IMG/VR virus record: IMGVR_UViG_3300033074_001483
Span: 21,517 to 85,516 of that record
Length of the DNA stretch: 64,000 nt
Source of the DNA: a virus
Lineage: Duplodnaviria > Caudoviricetes
Strand: one strand, 5' to 3'
Shown: in pieces, positions 37,552-53,313 of the stretch
Layout of the letters: every line of letters begins with the position of its first letter
How positions within the stretch are numbered: position 1 is the first letter of the stretch
Made by a program: the position numbers and the translations under genes
The notes under the pieces: generated by a model
What the model was told of the DNA's origin: nothing
The model's input: only the letters and a program-made list of their open reading frames with translations
The model's database searches: none

Positions 37552-37629
37552 TGGTCGGAGTGATAGGATTTGAACCTACGACCTTCTGCTCCCAAAGCAG
37601 ACGCACTAGCCAAGCTGTGCTACACTCCG
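37552..37629 (-). tRNA. tRNA-Pro(TGG)
   Basis: TCTGC-TTTGGGA-GCAGA; CCA. Confidence 0.95.
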
Positions 37630-41321: not shown

Positions 41322-41409
41322 TGGCGGTAGGCTGAGGTCACGCTCCCCACACCCTTTCAGGTGCGATCCGATTTCAAGTCGGTCCTGAGTCTCACTCAGT
41401 TAACCTACC
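41322..41409 (-). tRNA. tRNA-Ser(TGA)
   Basis: Loop CT-TGA-AA; long variable arm; acceptor and T arms nearly identical to tRNA-Ser(GCT); CCA. Confidence 0.88.
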
Positions 41410-45192: not shown

Positions 45193-45267
45193 TGGTCAGG
45201 ATGGAGAGATTTGAACTCTCGGTCTCTTGCTCCCGAAGCAAGCGTGTTGCCGCTACACTACACCCTG
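45193..45267 (-). tRNA. tRNA-Pro(CGG)
   Basis: CTTGC-TTCGGGA-GCAAG; CCA. Confidence 0.93.
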
Positions 45268-46608: not shown

Positions 46609-47049
46609 TTATGAAATTCTGTTTTTGTACCAATGATTATTCTTAGCAAACTCTCGTTTGATATGGCAGTGGGCACATAAAAGATCACATTTCGCAATCT
46701 CTTTCAATATGCGTTTCCAACCGAATATCGTTAGCATTGTTGAAACATCATAATCCTTTTCGTTGGGATCACGATGATGAAATTGAAACAAGCGGATGTC
46801 GGTCTCGGGACAATCTTTACAAGTCTTACCTTGTAAAAACTGAATCATATTTTCCCGATTTCTATCACGCTGAATGCGTTTATTTTTGTAAGCTCTTTTT
46901 AACGCATCTTTTCTATGTTTTTTGTAATGTTTTCTGCTGTAAGAATCGTGGCATTCTTTACATTTGCTTTGCAAGATTCCCATTGCTTTGTTACGGAATG
47001 AGAAATGCGACTCGTCTTTTGGATTATGACATGCACTACATATTTTCAT
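46609..47049 (-). CDS. HNH homing endonuclease
   Basis: CKDCPE.DIRLFQFHH..EIAKCDLLCAHCH; paralog of 31414, 32676 and 49019. Confidence 0.88.
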   Translation of the reverse strand: MKICSACHNPKDESHFSFRNKAMGILQSKCKECHDSYSRKHYKKHRKDALKRAYKNKRIQRDRNRENMIQFLQGKTCKDCPETDIRLFQFHHRDPNEKDYDVSTMLTIFGWKRILKEIAKCDLLCAHCHIKREFAKNNHWYKNRIS

Positions 47050-47367: not shown

Positions 47368-47502
47368 TGGAGCCGTGCGATGGACTTGGCACCATCAGTT
47401 CATCTGGCATTATTCATCGCAGGGCAATCACCCCGCTAACTTCTCCGTTCAGGGAGACTCTTTGCTTTTCAAGAGACGTGTTCTACATTGAACTAGCACG
47501 GC
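47368..47502 (-). ncRNA. Oversized tRNA-like RNA (135 nt)
   Basis: 7-bp acceptor GCCGTGC/GCACGGC + TCCA, D arm, T-like arm, ~60-nt multi-hairpin insert. Confidence 0.75.
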
Positions 47503-47603
47503 ATAAAGTCTGCTTTATCGGACATTATCCCACATAACGTCAGACAAATAAGGCTTCATATATGATACGTTATGCCTTATTACGTATCATACATGTTACA
47601 TTG

Positions 47604-47713
47604 TGGTCGCACCGATAGGATTTGCACCTAACTTTTCCAAACTCCTTGTAAGGCGTTGGTTACTTGCAGATACCTCCGGGGTACGCCTCGGCCCTACTGC
47701 CAACTACAGTGCG
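47604..47713 (-). ncRNA. Oversized tRNA-like RNA (110 nt)
   Basis: 7-bp acceptor + ACCA, T arm TGCAAAT loop, 7-bp GAGGCGT/ACGCCTT stem with large loop instead of an anticodon. Confidence 0.7.
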
Positions 47714-47818
47714 ATAAATGACTTTTGATAACATATTTATACACATATGCCATCTGACCATCTGTGGTTTCATCTAATGGAAAGCGTCTCCTTCCCTTCT
47801 GAGGAATAACTTATTGTT

Positions 47819-48736
47819 ATGAAATCCGTGATGGACGGAAAAAATCTTGCGGATGCTGCCAAAGACCTCTCTATTTCTACCAAAGAGGCGAAAGAACTTC
47901 TCAAATCTGGAATGCAACGTGCCAACCTTCAAAATCTCTACGAACTAATCATATTTGGACTGAGAAGTGGTATTATCAAAGATGACCCCATTGACATTAA
48001 AGATGTAGAAAAACAATTTGAAACTCCCGGGTTTTACGAGGCTAACCCAACTTGGTTGCACATTATGAATCAACTTGTCACTGGCAAAACTCTTCAAGAC
48101 ATTGAGCGTGAAGGTGGTGGTGCAAAAACAAGCATTCAGAACGCAATCAAAAAACTTTCAGGAAAGTTTGGACTTGGGGATTCGATGGCAAAACTCATTC
48201 GTTTTTCTTTGGCAGCTTTGAATCCCATCACTCCAAACCCCCGTGTTCGTGGATTCAAACCATTTGTTTCATGGGCACAAAAACAAGGAGTTGGTTCTCA
48301 ATTTCCATTGATAAAAAGTAAGTTTCGTTCTGCCGATGTTGACCCAGAGATTCCCGTTTACAATGCATCCAAAAAATACAATGTTGGTGACACGGGTGAT
48401 AAACCCAAACTTCCAAAACCAGCAATGTCTTTTGCTGATAGGAAAAAACTTCCACCACCAATTGTAAGAAATACTTCCATTCAAACCGCATTGTGGTTAT
48501 TGGGTATAGATAAAAAAGTCATTACTCCTACCGCACTTCAAGGATCGTTTTGGAACAGACCCTCTTCTTTCTTATGGAAGCTTCTGGAACTTGCCAAGAG
48601 ACGATATGAACTTGAAATGTTGCATAATCATCCTGACAGAGGCGGCGACTCACGACGAGCGGCACAAATTAGTGCTGCTTGGGAATTAGTGAGACACTTG
48701 TTCGCCAAGCACGGATACGAACTTCACAAGCGGTAA
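47819..48736 (+). CDS. Tandem LuxR-type HTH protein with C-terminal J-domain-like HPD motif
   Basis: GKNLADAAKDLSIST.. and GKTLQDI.. HTHs; RYELEMLHNHPDRGGD..ISAAWE. Confidence 0.65.
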   Translation: MKSVMDGKNLADAAKDLSISTKEAKELLKSGMQRANLQNLYELIIFGLRSGIIKDDPIDIKDVEKQFETPGFYEANPTWLHIMNQLVTGKTLQDIEREGGGAKTSIQNAIKKLSGKFGLGDSMAKLIRFSLAALNPITPNPRVRGFKPFVSWAQKQGVGSQFPLIKSKFRSADVDPEIPVYNASKKYNVGDTGDKPKLPKPAMSFADRKKLPPPIVRNTSIQTALWLLGIDKKVITPTALQGSFWNRPSSFLWKLLELAKRRYELEMLHNHPDRGGDSRRAAQISAAWELVRHLFAKHGYELHKR

Positions 48737-48738
48737 AT

Positions 48739-48822
48739 TGGTGCTACTGATAGGAGTCGAACCTACATGGTGTTACCCGCTTGCCCCTCAAGCAAGTGTG
48801 TCTGCCATTCCACCACAGTAGC
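48739..48822 (-). tRNA. tRNA-Leu(GAG)
   Basis: CTTGC-TTGAGGG-GCAAG; normal type II; CCA. Confidence 0.93.
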
Positions 48823-48828
48823 ATAAAT

Positions 48829-48933
48829 TGGCGAGATGCCGAACCCTTTCGGGCTTGCCGGGGTTTGAACCCAGCTCACTGTTCATTTTCAATATGAATG
48901 TTTTTCCTTTTGGGATTTGCTGCAAGCATCTCG
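48829..48933 (-). ncRNA. RCAGCWA-helix family RNA with anticodon-like and T arms, CCA end
   Basis: CGAGATGC/GCATCTCG + CCA; GCAGCAA; TTCAT/ATGAA arm; T arm TTCAAAC loop; GAAA hairpin. Confidence 0.75.
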
Positions 48934-48939
48934 TAAATT

Positions 48940-49028
48940 TGGTGCAGCCGACAGGATTCGAACCTGCGTGGGAAATGGTTATCCATCAGCTTAAAAGGCT
49001 GTTGCCTCGGCCACTTGGCTACGACTGC
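48940..49028 (-). tRNA. tRNA(TTT) (Lys anticodon) on a type II-like scaffold
   Basis: Loop CT-TTT-AA; Leu/Tyr-type D arm; ~18-nt variable region; A73; CCA. Confidence 0.85.
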
Positions 49029-49435
49029 ATTTGACGTTTTTTCCACTCCAACTTTCTATGACAATTGGAGCAAATAACATCGCATTTTTCAATTTCAGCA
49101 AGAAGTTTCTCTTTTGGCCATCCAGCATAAACAGCCTTGCTGATTTCCATCTCTTTTGTAGATGGGTCTCGATGATGAAAATCCAATGTAGCAATATGAA
49201 TTTCTGGGCATAGCAAACATTTGGATTTTGCTTTGATGTCATTGACTAAATCCAGAAGCTCCGCTTTTTTGCTCTTGATATATGCCTTGTGTTTTTGTTT
49301 ATTTGAGGCATAGTATTTCTTGGATGATTTGCGATTACACTCTCGGCACACGCCCTGCAATCCATCTTTTTTGGATGCTTTGCGATTAAACTCGGAGAGC
49401 GGTTTTTTCTTTTTACAAGTATTACATCGTTTCAT
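49019..49435 (-). CDS. HNH homing endonuclease
   Basis: CLLCPE..LDFHH..EIEKCDVICSNCH; TAG stop inside the tRNA. Confidence 0.88.
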   Translation of the reverse strand: MKRCNTCKKKKPLSEFNRKASKKDGLQGVCRECNRKSSKKYYASNKQKHKAYIKSKKAELLDLVNDIKAKSKCLLCPEIHIATLDFHHRDPSTKEMEISKAVYAGWPKEKLLAEIEKCDVICSNCHRKLEWKKRQMQS

Positions 49436-49487
49436 ATACTCATAAATAGTGATTTTAACTCTCAAAAGAGTTAAAATCCAAAAGAAC

Positions 49488-49622
49488 TAGATACGGTTTT
49501 TTTCTTCCCTTGCGGGACCGACGTTCTACATTAAACTACAGCCCCGATATGTGGCGGGGCCGACTGGGTTTGTCCAGTACTTGCGGTTTGACATAAGAAT
49601 GTTTTCTTGCTGTCCGTATCTA
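49488..49622 (-). ncRNA. Circularly permuted tRNA-like RNA (Asp-like) in an RCAGCWA helix, 135 nt
   Basis: 3' half + GCCA, 6-nt linker, then 5' half; 9-bp closing helix. Confidence 0.8.
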
Positions 49623-49630
49623 AATTGAAT

Positions 49631-49860
49631 GGGAAAGATAGTGTGCTATTACGCCAAAGACCTCAGACCGTCGCTTTCTCTTTCTCTTTGATTAGAATGA
49701 TTTGCTGCTTCTGCCTGTACCTCTGACGAGATACGAATGCGATACTTGCGATTAGGTGTGCCTCTATCCCTATGTTTCCACGGGGCGAAAAAAGACAAAC
49801 ATTTGCACTCAGTCACTCATTATAGGATTGCTGCCTCTAAGCCAACCTCCTAACTTTCCT
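49631..49860 (-). ncRNA. 23S rRNA L11-binding (H43-H44) domain mimic with internal insertion
   Basis: GGAGGTTGGCTTAGAGGCAGCAATCCT..GAGTG and GCGTAATAGCACACT, closed by GGAAAG/CTTTCC. Confidence 0.75.
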
Positions 49861-49865
49861 CAAAT

Positions 49866-49942
49866 TGGTAGCCCCACTCGGCATCGAACCGAGTTTCTCT
49901 GCTTGAAAAACAGAAGTCCTTACCAGACTAGACGATGGGGCC
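49866..49942 (-). tRNA. tRNA-Glu(TTC), copy 2
   Basis: TCTGT-TTTTCAA-GCAGA; CCA. Confidence 0.9.
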
Positions 49943-49950
49943 ATAAAAGC

Positions 49951-50085
49951 AAGATGCGTTTTTTTGTAGGCTTTCGCCGACTCCTGCTCTACTCACTGAG
50001 CTACCCAGCCATATGGTGGCTGAGGGTGGATTTGCACACACCGACACGGAGTTCCTCATACATTTTGTTTAGCTGTACGCATCTT
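49951..50085 (-). ncRNA. Circularly permuted tRNA-like RNA (Phe-derived) in an RCAGCWA helix, 135 nt
   Basis: 3' half + ACCA, 3-nt linker TAT, then 5' half; 9-bp closing helix. Confidence 0.82.
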
Positions 50086-50089
50086 AAAG

Positions 50090-50164
50090 TGGCCCGGACA
50101 ATCGGTAACGCTCCGATCTCTTCAGTTTTTCAGACTGACGCTAATCTATCTCAGCTATGTCCGG
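50090..50164 (-). tRNA. tRNA-Phe(GAA)
   Basis: TCAGT-CTGAAAA-ACTGA; T-loop AGCGTTA; G73; CCA. Confidence 0.85.
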
Positions 50165-50229
50165 AAATATCAATAGGCATCATCACGGGTACTCTTGAAT
50201 AGGTATTTGATAACCATTGATATAGAAAT

Positions 50230-50305
50230 TGGTCCCGCCCCCCGGTATCGAGCCGGGTTGTCTCGCTCTTCAGGCGAGTGCATTGACCTCAATTGCTTGA
50301 GCGGG
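50230..50305 (-). tRNA. tRNA-Phe(GAA), copy 2
   Basis: CTCGC-CTGAAGA-GCGAG; CCA. Confidence 0.85.
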
Positions 50306-50416
50306 GAAAACGAATAGCTGCTACTACCGCACCGCAATTGTCAGCACGGATTTGCCTTATTTAACCGATCCTATCGGCACTAGACGTGCTGTACAACCTA
50401 GTACAACACGACAAAT

Positions 50417-50491
50417 TGGTACACCCATCAGGACTCGAACCCGAAACTCTACGTTCGAAGCGTAGAATGATTTCCATTTCACCATGAGTGC
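50417..50491 (-). tRNA. tRNA-Arg(TCG)
   Basis: CTACG-CTTCGAA-CGTAG; CCA. Confidence 0.92.
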
Positions 50492-50759
50492 ATTGAAGAC
50501 GCTTATTTTAGAGCGGCTAACGTCGTCCCGCCCCAACATGCGTCACGATTTACAACAAAAATGTTGTATTTCGTGAAACCGATGATCATCGTTGTTTATC
50601 GGTGTTGAAAAGACACCCGCAGAACGGGTGTCCAACTTTTTCCACCATTGGTGGATAAGATATTGCTCGCAGGGCACCCAAGATACGAGTGTCTTCTTTA
50701 CTCCGTCTGTGCTGACTGGAAGTACTACTCCACTTGGCCTGTAGCAAATTGTTTAAGAA

Positions 50760-50835
50760 TGGCTCCTCCCGCAGGACTTGAACCTGCAACCTACTGGTTA
50801 ACAGCCAGTCGCTACTACCATTGAGCTAGAGAGGA
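50760..50835 (-). tRNA. tRNA-Asn(GTT)
   Basis: ACTGG-CTGTTAA-CCAGT; CCA. Confidence 0.95.
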
Positions 50836-50843
50836 ATGTAAAT

Positions 50844-50939
50844 TGGCTCTCGGGGATGGACTCGAACCACCATACGGGCTATCACGCCCGATTGCACGGC
50901 ATTAACAGTGCCGCCACTTACCAATTAGTGTACCCGAGA
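50844..50939 (-). tRNA. tRNA-Asn(GTT) with long variable arm
   Basis: CGGCA-CTGTTAA-TGCCG; variable hairpin CGGGC/GCCCG; G73; CCA. Confidence 0.85.
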
Positions 50940-50940
50940 A

Positions 50941-51103
50941 TGGCTCCAACAACGAGACTCGAACTCGCACATCCAGCTCAAATTGCCGGAATGCTTCCTA
51001 CTAGAAATGCGGAGTGTTTTCATGCTTACTTCATCATCCTTATTACGTAATTCGGGATGCCTTCATCCATTACTTCTCCGACTAGCGATTACATCATGCT
51101 GGA
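50941..51103 (-). ncRNA. Oversized tRNA-like RNA (163 nt)
   Basis: 7-bp acceptor TCCAGCA/TGTTGGA + GCCA; canonical T arm; ~115-nt core with CTAG and CGGAG/CTCCG helices. Confidence 0.75.
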
Positions 51104-51111
51104 ATTGAAAG

Positions 51112-51201
51112 TGGTGCCAGAATTTGGATTTGAACCAATACATACCTGTGGTTTATTGCGGCAAACATCTTGATGAAAAGCTAGATGTCTTTTCATTCTG
51201 G
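51112..51201 (-). ncRNA. tRNA-like RNA (90 nt) without canonical D or anticodon arms
   Basis: GCCAGAA/TTCTGGC + ACCA; TTCAAAT T-loop; 8-bp AGACATCT/AGATGTTT arm. Confidence 0.65.
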
Positions 51202-51207
51202 CGTAAA

Positions 51208-51285
51208 GTGGTGGGGTAGGGAGAATCGAACTCCCAACCGCTTGTGTGTAGGACAAGCACTCTTCCGTGTTGAGATTACCACCCC
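51208..51285 (-). tRNA. tRNA-Val(TAC), copy 2 (C33)
   Basis: CTTGT-CCTACAC-ACAAG; CCA. Confidence 0.8.
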
Positions 51286-51348
51286 GAAGAACTTGGCTGA
51301 TTTTCTTGACTCATTTAAGGTGTCCCTAAACACCACCGAGTTCAAAAA

Positions 51349-51433
51349 TGGTGGGCGGGATACCTCGTCATTATTTAGACAAAATCACAAGTAGAATCCT
51401 CAGATTCAGTTGTATGTCTATCAGACGCCGCCC
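51349..51433 (-). ncRNA. CCA-terminated irregular hairpin RNA
   Basis: GGGCGG/CCGCCC + ACCA; nested TAGACA/TGTCTA and GAATC/GATTC stems. Confidence 0.45.
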
Positions 51434-53228: not shown

Positions 53229-53313
53229 TGGTACACTCGGAGAGACTTGAACTCTCATATAGCTTTCGCTCTTGGTTCGTAGCCAAGTGCCAATCCAGTT
53301 TGACGACGAGTGC
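53229..53313 (-). tRNA. tRNA-Arg(ACG) with extra variable hairpin
   Basis: CTTGG-CTACGAA-CCAAG; AGC-GAAA-GCT; CCA. Confidence 0.85.

What the first reader, a model, noticed from the sequence alone, without database searches (positions are those of the whole stretch)
47368..51433. Oversized CCA-ending tRNA-like RNAs with the anticodon arm replaced
Seen: 47368-47502 (135 nt, U73, D and T arms, ~60-nt multi-hairpin insert), 47604-47713 (110 nt), 50941-51103 (163 nt, canonical T arm, long irregular helix reminiscent of tmRNA P2), 51112-51201 (90 nt) and 51349-51433. Each keeps a 6-7 bp acceptor stem plus NCCA but has no YU-NNN-R loop. 47368 shares TAGTT(C/T)AATGTAGAAC with the permuted Asp-like RNA. 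Known: T4 makes tRNA-like species of unknown function. Inference: non-decoding, possibly chargeable mimics acting on RelA-type sensors, EF-Tu or tRNA-sensing defences.
Basis: partly seen in the sequence, partly recalled or inferred. Interest (0 to 1): 0.7.

Follow-up and report, generated by a model that had tools for sequence, protein, structure and literature searches.

The report
Conserved tRNA-framed RNAs in phage
The oversized genes in this giant phage's tRNA cluster are real, conserved RNAs that keep the ends and corner of a tRNA, carry extra folded domains and most likely do not read codons, which makes them new examples of the long-known, unexplained phage "tRNA-like stable RNAs" such as T4 species 1 and T5 RNA1.

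Summary
All five units lie on the minus strand of a roughly 60-gene tRNA array in a fragment of a giant myovirus-like phage. Each has homologues in related uncultured phages, and A, C and D carry compensatory base changes, so none is chance or a decayed pseudogene.

- **A** is a full cloverleaf with a 59-nt three-way-junction module set into the anticodon loop. A Y-U-U-N-A-R-A heptamer survives, but its middle base differs among orthologues (UGA, UAA, UCA).
- **C** is a full cloverleaf with an 87-nt arm in the D loop. Its anticodon stem is kept, but the loop is unconserved (6-8 nt, no U33 in the window copy).
- **B** looks derived from tRNA-Pro and has a huge extra arm.
- **D** keeps only the acceptor and T arms.
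- **E** is a 6+4-bp CCA minihelix with a variable insert.

Best reading: these are non-decoding RNAs that use a tRNA frame for processing and stability, and the added domains do the work. Splicing of A into a decoder is not excluded, and no partner or function is shown. The kind is known (T4 rnaC, T5 RNA1/RNA2, Lak-phage "intron" tRNAs). This scan has already noted similar RNAs in at least 21 other genomes.

The parts
47368..47502 (-). A: 135-nt tRNA-shaped RNA. It has a 7-bp acceptor stem, U73, CCA, a D arm (GUUC/GAAC), a 5-bp anticodon stem, and a T arm with an 8-nt UGCCAAGU loop.
   Evidence: Rfam tRNA 32.8 bits with a 63-nt insertion. ARAGORN in intron mode. Four orthologues: 36 pairs, 14 with compensatory changes, 142 of 144 cells paired.
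47466..47473 (-). A: 8-nt anticodon-like internal loop, CUUGAAAA. The orthologues read CUUAAAAA, AUUCAAA and UUUAAGAA.
   Evidence: U33, U34, A36 and R37 are kept, and position 35 is G, A, C or A.
47407..47465 (-). A: 59-nt add-on module. It consists of a 3-bp closing helix (GCN/N'GC), the invariant hairpin UCUCC-CUGAAC-GGAGA, the hairpin GCGGGGU-GNUU-GCCCUGC, and the joiner GAUG(U)AAUNA.
   Evidence: RNAalifold consensus. In the most distant orthologue the module is 88% identical and the tRNA body 67%.
47604..47713 (-). B: 110-nt tRNA-like RNA. It has C1-G72, A73, CCA, a D arm with GG, and a T arm (UGCAAAU). A weak hairpin CGUAC-CCCGGAG-GUAUC (47669-47685) is followed by a 37-nt extra arm (47632-47668).
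   Evidence: Homologues in L093 (90% identical) and L106, which has 39 nt more in the extra arm. The acceptor stem has one compensatory pair. The T arm is 94% identical to that of tRNA-Pro(UGG). Neither Rfam nor the ARAGORN deletion scan calls it a tRNA.
50941..51103 (-). C: 163-nt tRNA cloverleaf. It has U1-A72, G73, CCA, a D stem AUGU/GCAU and a canonical T arm GCGAG-UUCGAGU-CUCGU, plus a large D-loop arm.
   Evidence: Six homologues. For the three best-aligned, 40 pairs are 97.5% paired and 18 carry double changes; 0 of 500 shuffles reach this, and slid controls give 1-4. All 7 acceptor pairs covary in the six-sequence alignment.
51000..51086 (-). C: 87-nt arm inserted in the D loop between A14-A15-U16-C17 and A-G18-G19. 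Four stacked helices enclose an internal loop GAUGAAGG / AUGWAGUAAG (it contains AGUA and GAA, so it is loop-E-like). The apical loop holds an invariant palindrome UACGUA.
   Evidence: An ARAGORN deletion scan shows that removing 87-91 nt here restores a tRNA call.
50972..50990 (-). C: 6-bp stem with the 7-nt loop AAUUUGA at the anticodon position. There is no U33.
   Evidence: The stem covaries (4 of 6 pairs). The loops in the homologues are CUUAUA, AUUCUAA, UAUAUCU and two 6-8-nt variants.
51112..51202 (-). D: 91-nt RNA. It has a 7-bp acceptor stem, A73, CCA and a T arm (UUCAAAU). The core is not a cloverleaf and contains the helix ACAUCU/AGAUGU (51165-51188).
   Evidence: Rfam tRNA 21.9 bits, below the cut-off, with only the acceptor and T arm aligned. 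There is one homologue, in L093, with compensatory changes in the acceptor stem and the core helix. No single deletion gives a tRNA call.
51349..51433 (-). E: 85-nt CCA-ending minihelix. The conserved core is GGGCGG-CGUC-UGA ... AUAAU-GACG-AGGUAUC-CCGCCC-A-CCA (5' core 51421-51433, 3' core 51349-51374). A non-conserved insert lies in between.
   Evidence: Eight homologues were parsed, and a ninth contig matches only the 3' core pattern. The core is almost invariant and the insert is 0-63 nt. The L093 copy is a bare ~45-nt hairpin.
48829..48932 (-). It has an 8-10-bp terminal stem, G-CCA, a T-arm-like hairpin CUGGG-UUCAAAC-CCCGG, and an extra GAAA hairpin between that hairpin and the 3' strand.
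   Evidence: Homologues in L093, L101 and L120.

Best explanation
These are non-decoding small RNAs built on a tRNA frame.

Inferred steps:
- They are transcribed with the tRNA array.
- The acceptor/T-arm minihelix and, in A-C, the D/T elbow let RNase P cut the 5' end.
- The encoded N-CCA gives a tRNA-type 3' end.
- The product is therefore excised and stabilised like a tRNA.

The working part is the added domain: the 59-nt three-way junction in A's anticodon loop, the 87-nt loop-E-like arm in C's D loop, the extra arm of B, the core of D, and the bulged minihelix of E. These domains most likely bind a protein or RNA partner as a sponge, decoy or platform.

Shown: the genes are real, conserved, structurally constrained, and sit in a tRNA frame, and C, D and E lack a usable, conserved anticodon. 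Not shown: processing, stability and partner binding. The partner is unknown.
For: - **Position in the array.** All units share strand and spacing with about 60 tRNA genes, and strict tRNA-end signatures occur only on that strand.
- **Conservation.** Homologues exist in phages whose baseplate protein is only 55-75% identical.
- **Covariation.** A has 14 of 36 pairs compensatory and 142 of 144 cells paired. C has 18 of 40 pairs compensatory, with 0 of 500 shuffles reaching this. In C's six-sequence alignment all 7 acceptor pairs covary.
- **Selection on the add-ons.** A's module is 88% identical against 67% for its body in the most distant pair. C's arm motifs and E's core are nearly invariant.
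- **Anticodon not under decoding selection.** A's triplet is UGA, UAA, UCA or UAA on one body type that has U73 and no long variable arm. The window already carries an ordinary class-II Ser(UGA) gene at 41322-41409. C's loops are unconserved and 6-8 nt long. D and E have no anticodon arm.
- **Insert always present.** None of the four A orthologues lacks the insert. A BLAST of A's joined flanks against the 385 tRNAs that ARAGORN calls in the arrays matched only A and its G005 orthologue. The module occurs in no other context.
- **Permissive site.** The same D-loop site hosts C's arm and a small hairpin in the L101 copy of A.
- **Precedent.** T4 rnaC and T5 RNA1/RNA2 are annotated stable tRNA-like RNAs inside tRNA clusters and have the same top-half layout.
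Against: - There is no expression, end-mapping or binding data.
- A has a well-formed Y-U-NNN-R-A string exactly where a 37/38 intron would leave it, and removing the insert gives a normal 74-nt tRNA.
- Two circularly permuted tRNA genes lie 2 kb away and are conserved in relatives. Relatives also encode Rnl1/Rnl2-type RNA ligases. A cut-and-rejoin RNA pathway in this clade is therefore plausible.
- B may still present a proline-type NGG triplet in a hairpin loop.
- B and D rest on only 3 and 2 sequences.
- No known protein-binding or ribozyme motif was identified in any module.
Confidence: 0.6

Rival explanations
1. A, and possibly C, are intron-bearing tRNA genes. The insert would be cut out and the halves rejoined by a phage or host pathway, perhaps the same one that must mature the two permuted tRNA genes nearby. 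The product would be an ordinary 74-76-nt decoder.
For: - ARAGORN calls A as tRNA(UGA) with a 61-nt insert at the canonical 37/38 site.
- The deletion scan restores tRNA calls for A and C.
- All four A copies keep U33 and R37.
- Permuted tRNA genes are conserved in relatives.
- RNA ligases are present in relatives, and one lies inside the G005 array region.
- Lak megaphages are reported to have conserved 'introns' in their tRNAs (PMC6784885).
Against: - By manual inspection of the sequence around A's insert I found no bulge-helix-bulge motif, and there is no group I intron or ribozyme hit.
- No RtcB and no EndA-type endonuclease was found in the window's own contig or in four relatives. One of these is 100% complete (no A-E homologue was found in it) and one is 74% complete and carries C.
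- The would-be anticodon of A changes among orthologues, while the identity-bearing acceptor end (U73) stays the same. UGA and UAA would need Ser or Leu identity, which this class-I body lacks.
- After arm removal C would have A33 (window copy) or a 6-nt loop (G024 copy).
- The inserts are more conserved than the exons, and no insert-free orthologue was found for A.
Confidence: 0.12
2. They are decaying tRNA pseudogenes, or tRNA genes disrupted by selfish insertions, with no function.
For: The array is interspersed with HNH-endonuclease-like ORFs. Some features are degenerate: C33 in B, A33 in C, and a C-C mismatch at the base of E's stem.
Against: Compensatory changes maintain every helix, including those of the inserts. 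The inserts are conserved at 74-91% identity across phages with 55-75% identical structural proteins. E's core is almost invariant in nine contigs.
Confidence: 0.03
3. This is the first reader's specific version: aminoacylatable mimics that engage RelA-type sensors or EF-Tu, or that act as bait for tRNA-targeting defence nucleases or toxins.
For: - Intact acceptor/T minihelices and CCA ends.
- A displays a conserved U-U-N-A-R-A anticodon-loop-like string.
- Phage tRNAs are known to counter tRNA-cleaving defences (PMC10264068, PMC11464382; titles and abstracts seen).
- Other first-stage readers of this scan noted further mimic-like RNAs in this array. A weak Rfam match to the 23S GTPase-centre region lies at 49801-49865.
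Against: - Nothing was tested.
- The exact CCA is lost more often than in true tRNAs.
- C's loop is not conserved, so it cannot be the bait.
- No aaRS identity set is complete in any family. A has U73, G1-C72 and C2-G71 like tRNA-Gly but lacks C35 and C36 (identity rules from my own knowledge).
Confidence: 0.2
4. B alone is a working, if odd, tRNA-Pro with a giant variable arm, like the Asn, Lys and Arg tRNAs with long variable arms in the same array.
For: - C1-G72 and A73, as in the array's tRNA-Pro genes.
- A T arm 94% identical to that of tRNA-Pro(UGG).
- A hairpin loop containing CGG (window and L093, the latter with U33) or GGG (L106).
- Other tRNAs here carry long extra arms.
Against: - The stem has only 4 bp, including one G-U pair.
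- The window copy has C33.
- A37 replaces the G37 that the canonical tRNA-Pro genes of this window show (Pro(UGG) 37552-37629; Pro(CGG) 45193-45267).
- L106 has an 8-nt loop.
- There is no Rfam hit, and ARAGORN makes no Pro call after any single deletion.
- Only three sequences are available, and this hairpin shows no covariation.
Confidence: 0.25

Closest known systems
Bacteriophage T4 species 1 RNA (rnaC, 139 nt) and species 2 RNA (rnaD), NC_000866 70908-71171
   Same: They are small stable RNAs encoded inside the phage tRNA cluster, on the tRNA strand and abutting a tRNA gene. rnaC has a canonical T arm (CCGGG-UUCGAAU-CCCGG) next to a terminal stem and an enlarged, non-tRNA middle. From my own knowledge, their function has been unknown since the 1970s.
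   Different: There is no sequence similarity; the only nhmmer hits of the families to the T4 and T5 loci fall on ordinary T4 tRNA genes. T4 rnaC does not encode CCA. A and C here keep complete cloverleaves, and the extra domain sits at defined sites (anticodon loop 37/38, D loop).
Bacteriophage T5 RNA1 (144 nt) and RNA2 (125 nt), NC_005859 30501-30644 and 32959-33083, annotated 'tRNA-like stable RNA with unknown functions'
   Same: They are oversized, lie within the tRNA region, and have acceptor-type terminal stems, D-like and T arms, and an expanded centre.
   Different: There is no sequence similarity. The phage lineage is different. The T5 RNAs are experimentally known as stable species, whereas these are predictions.
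'Intron'-containing tRNAs of Lak megaphages (Devoto et al. 2019, PMC6784885)
   Same: They are phage tRNA genes with highly conserved inserts, found only when eukaryote-type intron settings are used. Their nature is described as enigmatic. A would be annotated in the same way.
   Different: Lak inserts show presence/absence polymorphism between genomes, and one may itself encode a tRNA. A's insert is present in all four orthologues, and its triplet varies.
Class II tRNAs and engineered 'tRNA scaffolds'
   Same: An L-shaped tRNA tolerates a large extra helix while remaining a substrate for processing enzymes. From my own knowledge, engineered scaffolds place a cargo RNA in the anticodon stem.
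   Different: Natural class II arms sit in the variable region and are 10-25 nt long. Here the add-ons are 37-87 nt and sit in the anticodon loop, the D loop or the variable region.
tmRNA tRNA-like domain
   Same: A CCA-ending acceptor with the anticodon arm replaced by other RNA.
   Different: ARAGORN and Rfam find no tmRNA at these sites. There is no G3-U70 and no tag reading frame. C keeps its anticodon stem, and E has no T arm.

Membership tests
Canonical tRNA (Rfam RF00005) | Score at or above the gathering cut-off of 29 bits | tested here: inconclusive
   A scores 32.8 bits, but only by skipping a 63-nt insertion. D scores 21.9 bits, below the cut-off. B, C and E give no hit.
Canonical tRNA (Rfam RF00005) | A 5-bp anticodon stem closing a 7-nt loop with U33 and a purine at 37, and an anticodon conserved among orthologues | tested here: not met
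   In A the heptamer lies in an internal loop, and the triplet is UGA, UAA, UCA or UAA. In C the loops are 6-8 nt, unconserved, and the window copy has A33. D and E have none.
Archaeal/eukaryal-type intron-containing tRNA | A bulge-helix-bulge motif at the exon-intron junctions, and a splicing endonuclease (PF01974) plus RtcB | tested here: not met
   A's junction has an 8-nt loop on the 5' side and 1 nt on the 3' side, with no 3-4-3 BHB (manual inspection of the sequence). PF01974 and PF01139 are absent from the window's own contig and four relatives. These records are mostly incomplete.
Group I intron in tRNA | At least ~200 nt with a P1-P9 core and a match to the Rfam intron models | tested here: not met
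   The inserts are 59-87 nt, and there is no intron or ribozyme hit at E <= 10.
tmRNA | Detection by ARAGORN or Rfam, G3-U70, a T arm and a tag ORF | tested here: not met
   No call at these sites. A, B and E pair position 3 with 70 as C-G, C-G and G-C.
Phage tRNA-like stable RNAs (T4 species 1, T5 RNA1/RNA2 type) | Encoded within the phage tRNA cluster on the tRNA strand | tested here: met
Phage tRNA-like stable RNAs (T4 species 1, T5 RNA1/RNA2 type) | A tRNA-type terminal stem and T arm, with an oversized centre that does not decode | tested here: met
   A-D meet this. E has only the terminal stem. The T4 and T5 RNAs were folded for comparison.
Phage tRNA-like stable RNAs (T4 species 1, T5 RNA1/RNA2 type) | Accumulates as a stable, processed RNA in infected cells | not testable with these tools
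   This is an uncultured phage and no transcript data are available.
Phage tRNA-like stable RNAs (T4 species 1, T5 RNA1/RNA2 type) | Sequence homology to the T4 or T5 RNAs | tested here: not met
   nhmmer of all families against the T4 and T5 loci finds only T arms of ordinary T4 tRNAs. The class is defined by layout, not by homology.

The most novel reading that the evidence does not exclude
A is a genuine split-by-insert tRNA. Its 59-61-nt module at position 37/38 would be removed, and the two circularly permuted tRNA genes 2 kb away would be re-joined, by an undescribed bacterial-virus RNA cut-and-ligate pathway. That pathway would use the clade's Rnl-type ligases and an unknown endonuclease or RNA catalyst. 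This would be the first short, non-group-I tRNA splicing system in the bacterial world.
Probability: 0.1. Interest if true: 0.9.

Novelty: new member of a known kind. Interest (0 to 1): 0.4.

Why it matters
Phage tRNA clusters have been known for fifty years to hold stable tRNA-like RNAs with no assigned function (T4 species 1 and 2; T5 RNA1 and RNA2). This clade of giant phages adds six conserved families with well-defined architecture. Two of them, A and C, show exactly where a tRNA body can take a large extra domain: the anticodon loop at 37/38 and the D loop just before G18-G19.

The add-ons are better conserved than the frames, so they are concrete handles for pull-downs and deletions that could finally give such RNAs a function. 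For annotation, these genes will be missed, or mislabelled as intron-bearing Ser or Leu tRNAs, by standard pipelines.

Tried and rejected
- **Known RNA families.** Permissive Rfam scans of both sub-regions found no riboswitch, ribozyme, intron, tmRNA or other family. The AdoCbl hit over B is chance-level at 20.7 bits against a cut-off of 50. By hand, A's module does not fit a hammerhead, an HDV-like or theta fold, or a twister. E's UGA/AAUGA motif is not a clean kink-turn.
- **Close relatives by neighbouring proteins.** The 305-aa and 107-aa neighbours gave nothing in viral contigs. Exact 20- to 27-mers of A found only one other contig.
- **Cultured phages.** No homologue was found, only generic tRNA matches. 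The nearest cultured relative by baseplate protein is Microcystis phage Mel-JY01, at 44% identity.
- **Parent tRNAs.** BLAST of the tRNA bodies against the 385 array tRNAs gave only T-arm-level matches.
- **Insert-free orthologue of A.** None was found.
- **Alternative hairpin in A** (CUCUU/AAGAG). It is partly supported, but RNAalifold prefers the closing helix GCN/N'GC. A pseudoknot is possible.
- **Promoter and terminator scan.** Counts do not differ from shuffles.
- **Linked small ORF.** The 57-aa ORF just downstream of A is not conserved beside A's homologues.
- **Literature.** Searches found no description of these families.

Full report
**Setting.** The window is the last 64 kb of an 85.5-kb IMG/VR contig, estimated at 24% complete. 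It is a giant myovirus-like phage with baseplate-wedge and tail-fibre genes. The nearest cultured relative, Microcystis phage Mel-JY01, shares only 44% identity in the baseplate protein. From 30 to 57 kb the minus strand carries a tRNA array. ARAGORN finds 40 genes and Rfam 49. Across ten of the array loci, 219 of 227 ordinary tRNAs encode CCA. All five units of the finding lie on this strand.

**Is it more than chance?** A bare 7-bp stem plus NCCA is common on both strands (173 against 157 hits). The combination of a perfect acceptor stem, NCCA, a T stem and a U[U/G]C[A/G]A loop at 80-220 nt occurs 24 times on the minus strand, including B, C and D. It never occurs on the plus strand and occurs 0.02 times per shuffle. 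More decisive are the homologues.

**Finding relatives.** I collected relatives through the baseplate protein (562 hits) and through a conserved 123-aa protein of the array. I then searched their records by BLAST and nhmmer.

| Family | Contigs, including the window |
|---|---|
| A | 4 |
| B | 3 |
| C | 6 |
| D | 2 |
| E | 9 |
| F (a sixth unit, 48829-48932) | 4 |

**Unit A (47368-47502).** Rfam scores A as tRNA (32.8 bits) with a 63-nt insertion, and ARAGORN with introns calls Ser(UGA) with a 61-nt insert at 37/38.
- *Structure.* A structural parse of the four orthologues gives 36 pairs, 14 with compensatory changes, and 142 of 144 cells paired. The consensus from RNAalifold is a normal acceptor stem, D arm, anticodon stem and T arm.
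- *Loop and module.* The anticodon stem opens into an 8-nt 5' loop (CUUGAAAA, CUUAAAAA, AUUCAAA or UUUAAGAA) with 1 nt opposite. A 3-bp helix (GCN/N'GC, covarying) follows and closes a three-way junction. The junction holds an invariant hairpin, UCUCC-CUGAAC-GGAGA, and a second hairpin with one compensatory pair.
- *Against decoding.* The triplet is UGA, UAA, UCA and UAA on bodies that all carry U73 and a short variable region. This fits neither Ser nor Leu identity rules (my own knowledge). The window already has a class-II Ser(UGA) gene at 41322-41409. In the most distant orthologue the module is 88% identical and the tRNA body 67%.
- *Distribution.* A BLAST of A's joined flanks against the 385 tRNAs that ARAGORN calls in the arrays matched only A and its G005 orthologue, so no insert-free copy was found. 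The module occurs nowhere else.
- *Extra hairpin.* The L101 copy also carries a small hairpin in its D loop.

**Unit C (50941-51103).** The 'long irregular helix' is an 87-nt arm inside the D loop, between A14-A15-U16-C17 and A-G18-G19.
- *Cloverleaf.* The D stem (AUGU/GCAU), a 6-bp stem at the anticodon position and a canonical T arm are all present.
- *Covariation.* On the three best-aligned sequences, 40 pairs are 97.5% paired and 18 carry double changes. None of 500 shuffles reaches this, and slid controls give 1-4. With six sequences every acceptor pair covaries.
- *Deletion test.* Deleting 87-91 nt at the D loop restores an ARAGORN tRNA call.
- *Loop at the anticodon position.* It reads AAUUUGA, CUUAUA, AUUCUAA or UAUAUCU, plus two 6-8-nt variants. 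It is therefore not a conserved anticodon.
- *Arm motifs.* The arm keeps an internal loop GAUGAAGG / AUGWAGUAAG, which contains the AGUA and GAA of a loop-E-type motif (my reading). Its apical loop holds an invariant palindrome UACGUA, which could support loop-loop dimerisation (a hypothesis).
- *3' end.* Two of the six copies end in CCU.

**Units B, D and E.**
- *B (47604-47713).* It has C1-G72 and A73, a D arm with GG, a T arm resembling that of tRNA-Pro, a weak hairpin whose loop holds CGG or GGG, and a 37-nt extra arm that is 39 nt longer in L106. Neither Rfam nor the deletion scan calls it a tRNA. I treat the tRNA-Pro derivation as probable and decoding as open.
- *D (51112-51202).* It aligns to the tRNA model only at the acceptor and T arms (21.9 bits). 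Its one homologue has compensatory changes in the acceptor stem and in a core helix.
- *E (51349-51433).* It is not tRNA-shaped. An almost invariant 6-bp terminal stem, a 4-bp helix, a 7-nt 3' bulge and A-CCA flank an insert of 0-63 nt. The L093 copy is a bare ~45-nt hairpin. A pattern search finds the 3' core in only four IMG/VR contigs, so the family is confined to this clade.

**Splicing or not.** I found no bulge-helix-bulge motif at A's junction by manual inspection, and there is no group I intron or known ribozyme. There is no RtcB and no EndA-type endonuclease in the window's own contig or in four relatives, one of them complete. However, Rnl2- and Rnl1-type ligases are present in relatives, and one lies within the G005 array region. 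The two circularly permuted tRNA genes noted earlier by this scan fold as described. BLAST finds matches to them in several relatives. A cut-and-rejoin route therefore cannot be dismissed for A. For C, D and E splicing would not yield usable tRNAs.

**CCA ends.** The exact CCA is missing in 4 of 23 tRNA-like copies, against 8 of 227 ordinary tRNAs (p = 0.017). This is weak evidence that charging is not essential.

**Comparison with what is known.**
- T4 annotates rnaC and rnaD ('small, stable RNA; species 1/2') directly beside tRNA-Arg.
- T5 annotates RNA1 and RNA2 as 'tRNA-like stable RNA with unknown functions'.
- Folding shows T arms next to terminal stems with enlarged centres in T4 rnaC and T5 RNA1/RNA2, the same layout as here; rnaD shows no such layout. 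There is no sequence similarity.
- Lak megaphages were reported to have 'enigmatic', highly conserved tRNA introns (PMC6784885). A would be annotated in the same way.
- Earlier follow-ups in this scan reached the same class assignment for oversized tRNA-framed RNAs in at least 21 other genomes. I checked the T5 and Lak leads myself.

**Verdict.** The genes are real and conserved. 'Non-decoding tRNA-like RNA' is the best-supported reading at 0.6, with the added domains as the functional parts and the tRNA frame serving processing and stability. The partner and function remain unknown. The class is known, and these are new families of it.

Noticed in passing
window 48829-48932 (-): A sixth tRNA-like unit (F). 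It has an 8-10-bp terminal stem, G-CCA, a T-arm-like hairpin, and an extra CCC-GAAA-GGG hairpin between that hairpin and the 3' strand. It is conserved in L093, L101 and L120.
   Followed up: partly
window 50662-50755 (-): A 94-nt conserved element just downstream of tRNA-Asn. It is 86-91% identical in two relatives (G018, G041) and 72% in G005. It folds as a long irregular hairpin with 6 covarying pairs and has no CCA end, so it is a separate uncatalogued RNA.
   Followed up: partly
window 50844-50939, 48940-49028, 53229-53313 (-): Otherwise normal Asn(GUU), Lys(UUU) and Arg(ACG) tRNAs carry class-II-like long variable arms (96, 89 and 85 nt). This is unusual for these amino acids in bacteria.
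   Followed up: no
window 49488-49622 and 49951-50085 (-): The two circularly permuted tRNA genes (Asp GUC and Leu GAG by my reading) fold with a 9-bp closing helix, a GNRA hairpin and an A-rich tract. BLAST finds homologues in several relatives (G041, G048, G044, G037).
   Followed up: partly
L081:4727-5179 (G005 50726-51178): An Rnl2-type RNA ligase gene (PF09414, 103 bits) lies inside the region fetched for the tRNA array of a related phage. Rnl1-type ligases are present in G028 and G046.
   Followed up: no
window 46609-47049 and 49019-49465 (-): Cys-rich ORFs that read like HNH or zinc-finger homing endonucleases are interspersed in the array and conserved in relatives at 31-57% identity. 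Pfam gave no hit at E <= 0.001.
   Followed up: no
window 47819-48736 (+): This is the only sizeable plus-strand ORF in the stretch (305 aa). Near its C-terminus it has an HPD motif in an LHNHPDRGGD context, which resembles a J domain. There is no Pfam hit and no relatives were found.
   Followed up: partly
window 51209-51285 (-): A tRNA that default ARAGORN misses (Rfam 35.9 bits, anticodon loop CCUACAC, Val UAC-like) lies between D and E. Several other tRNAs here have non-canonical T loops (AGCGUAA, GGCAGUA, UGCGANU).
   Followed up: no
L101:3537-3567: The A orthologue of this phage has a 14-nt hairpin (CCAU-UGAAAU-AUGG) inserted in its D loop, at the same site where the C family carries its 87-nt arm.
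   Followed up: partly
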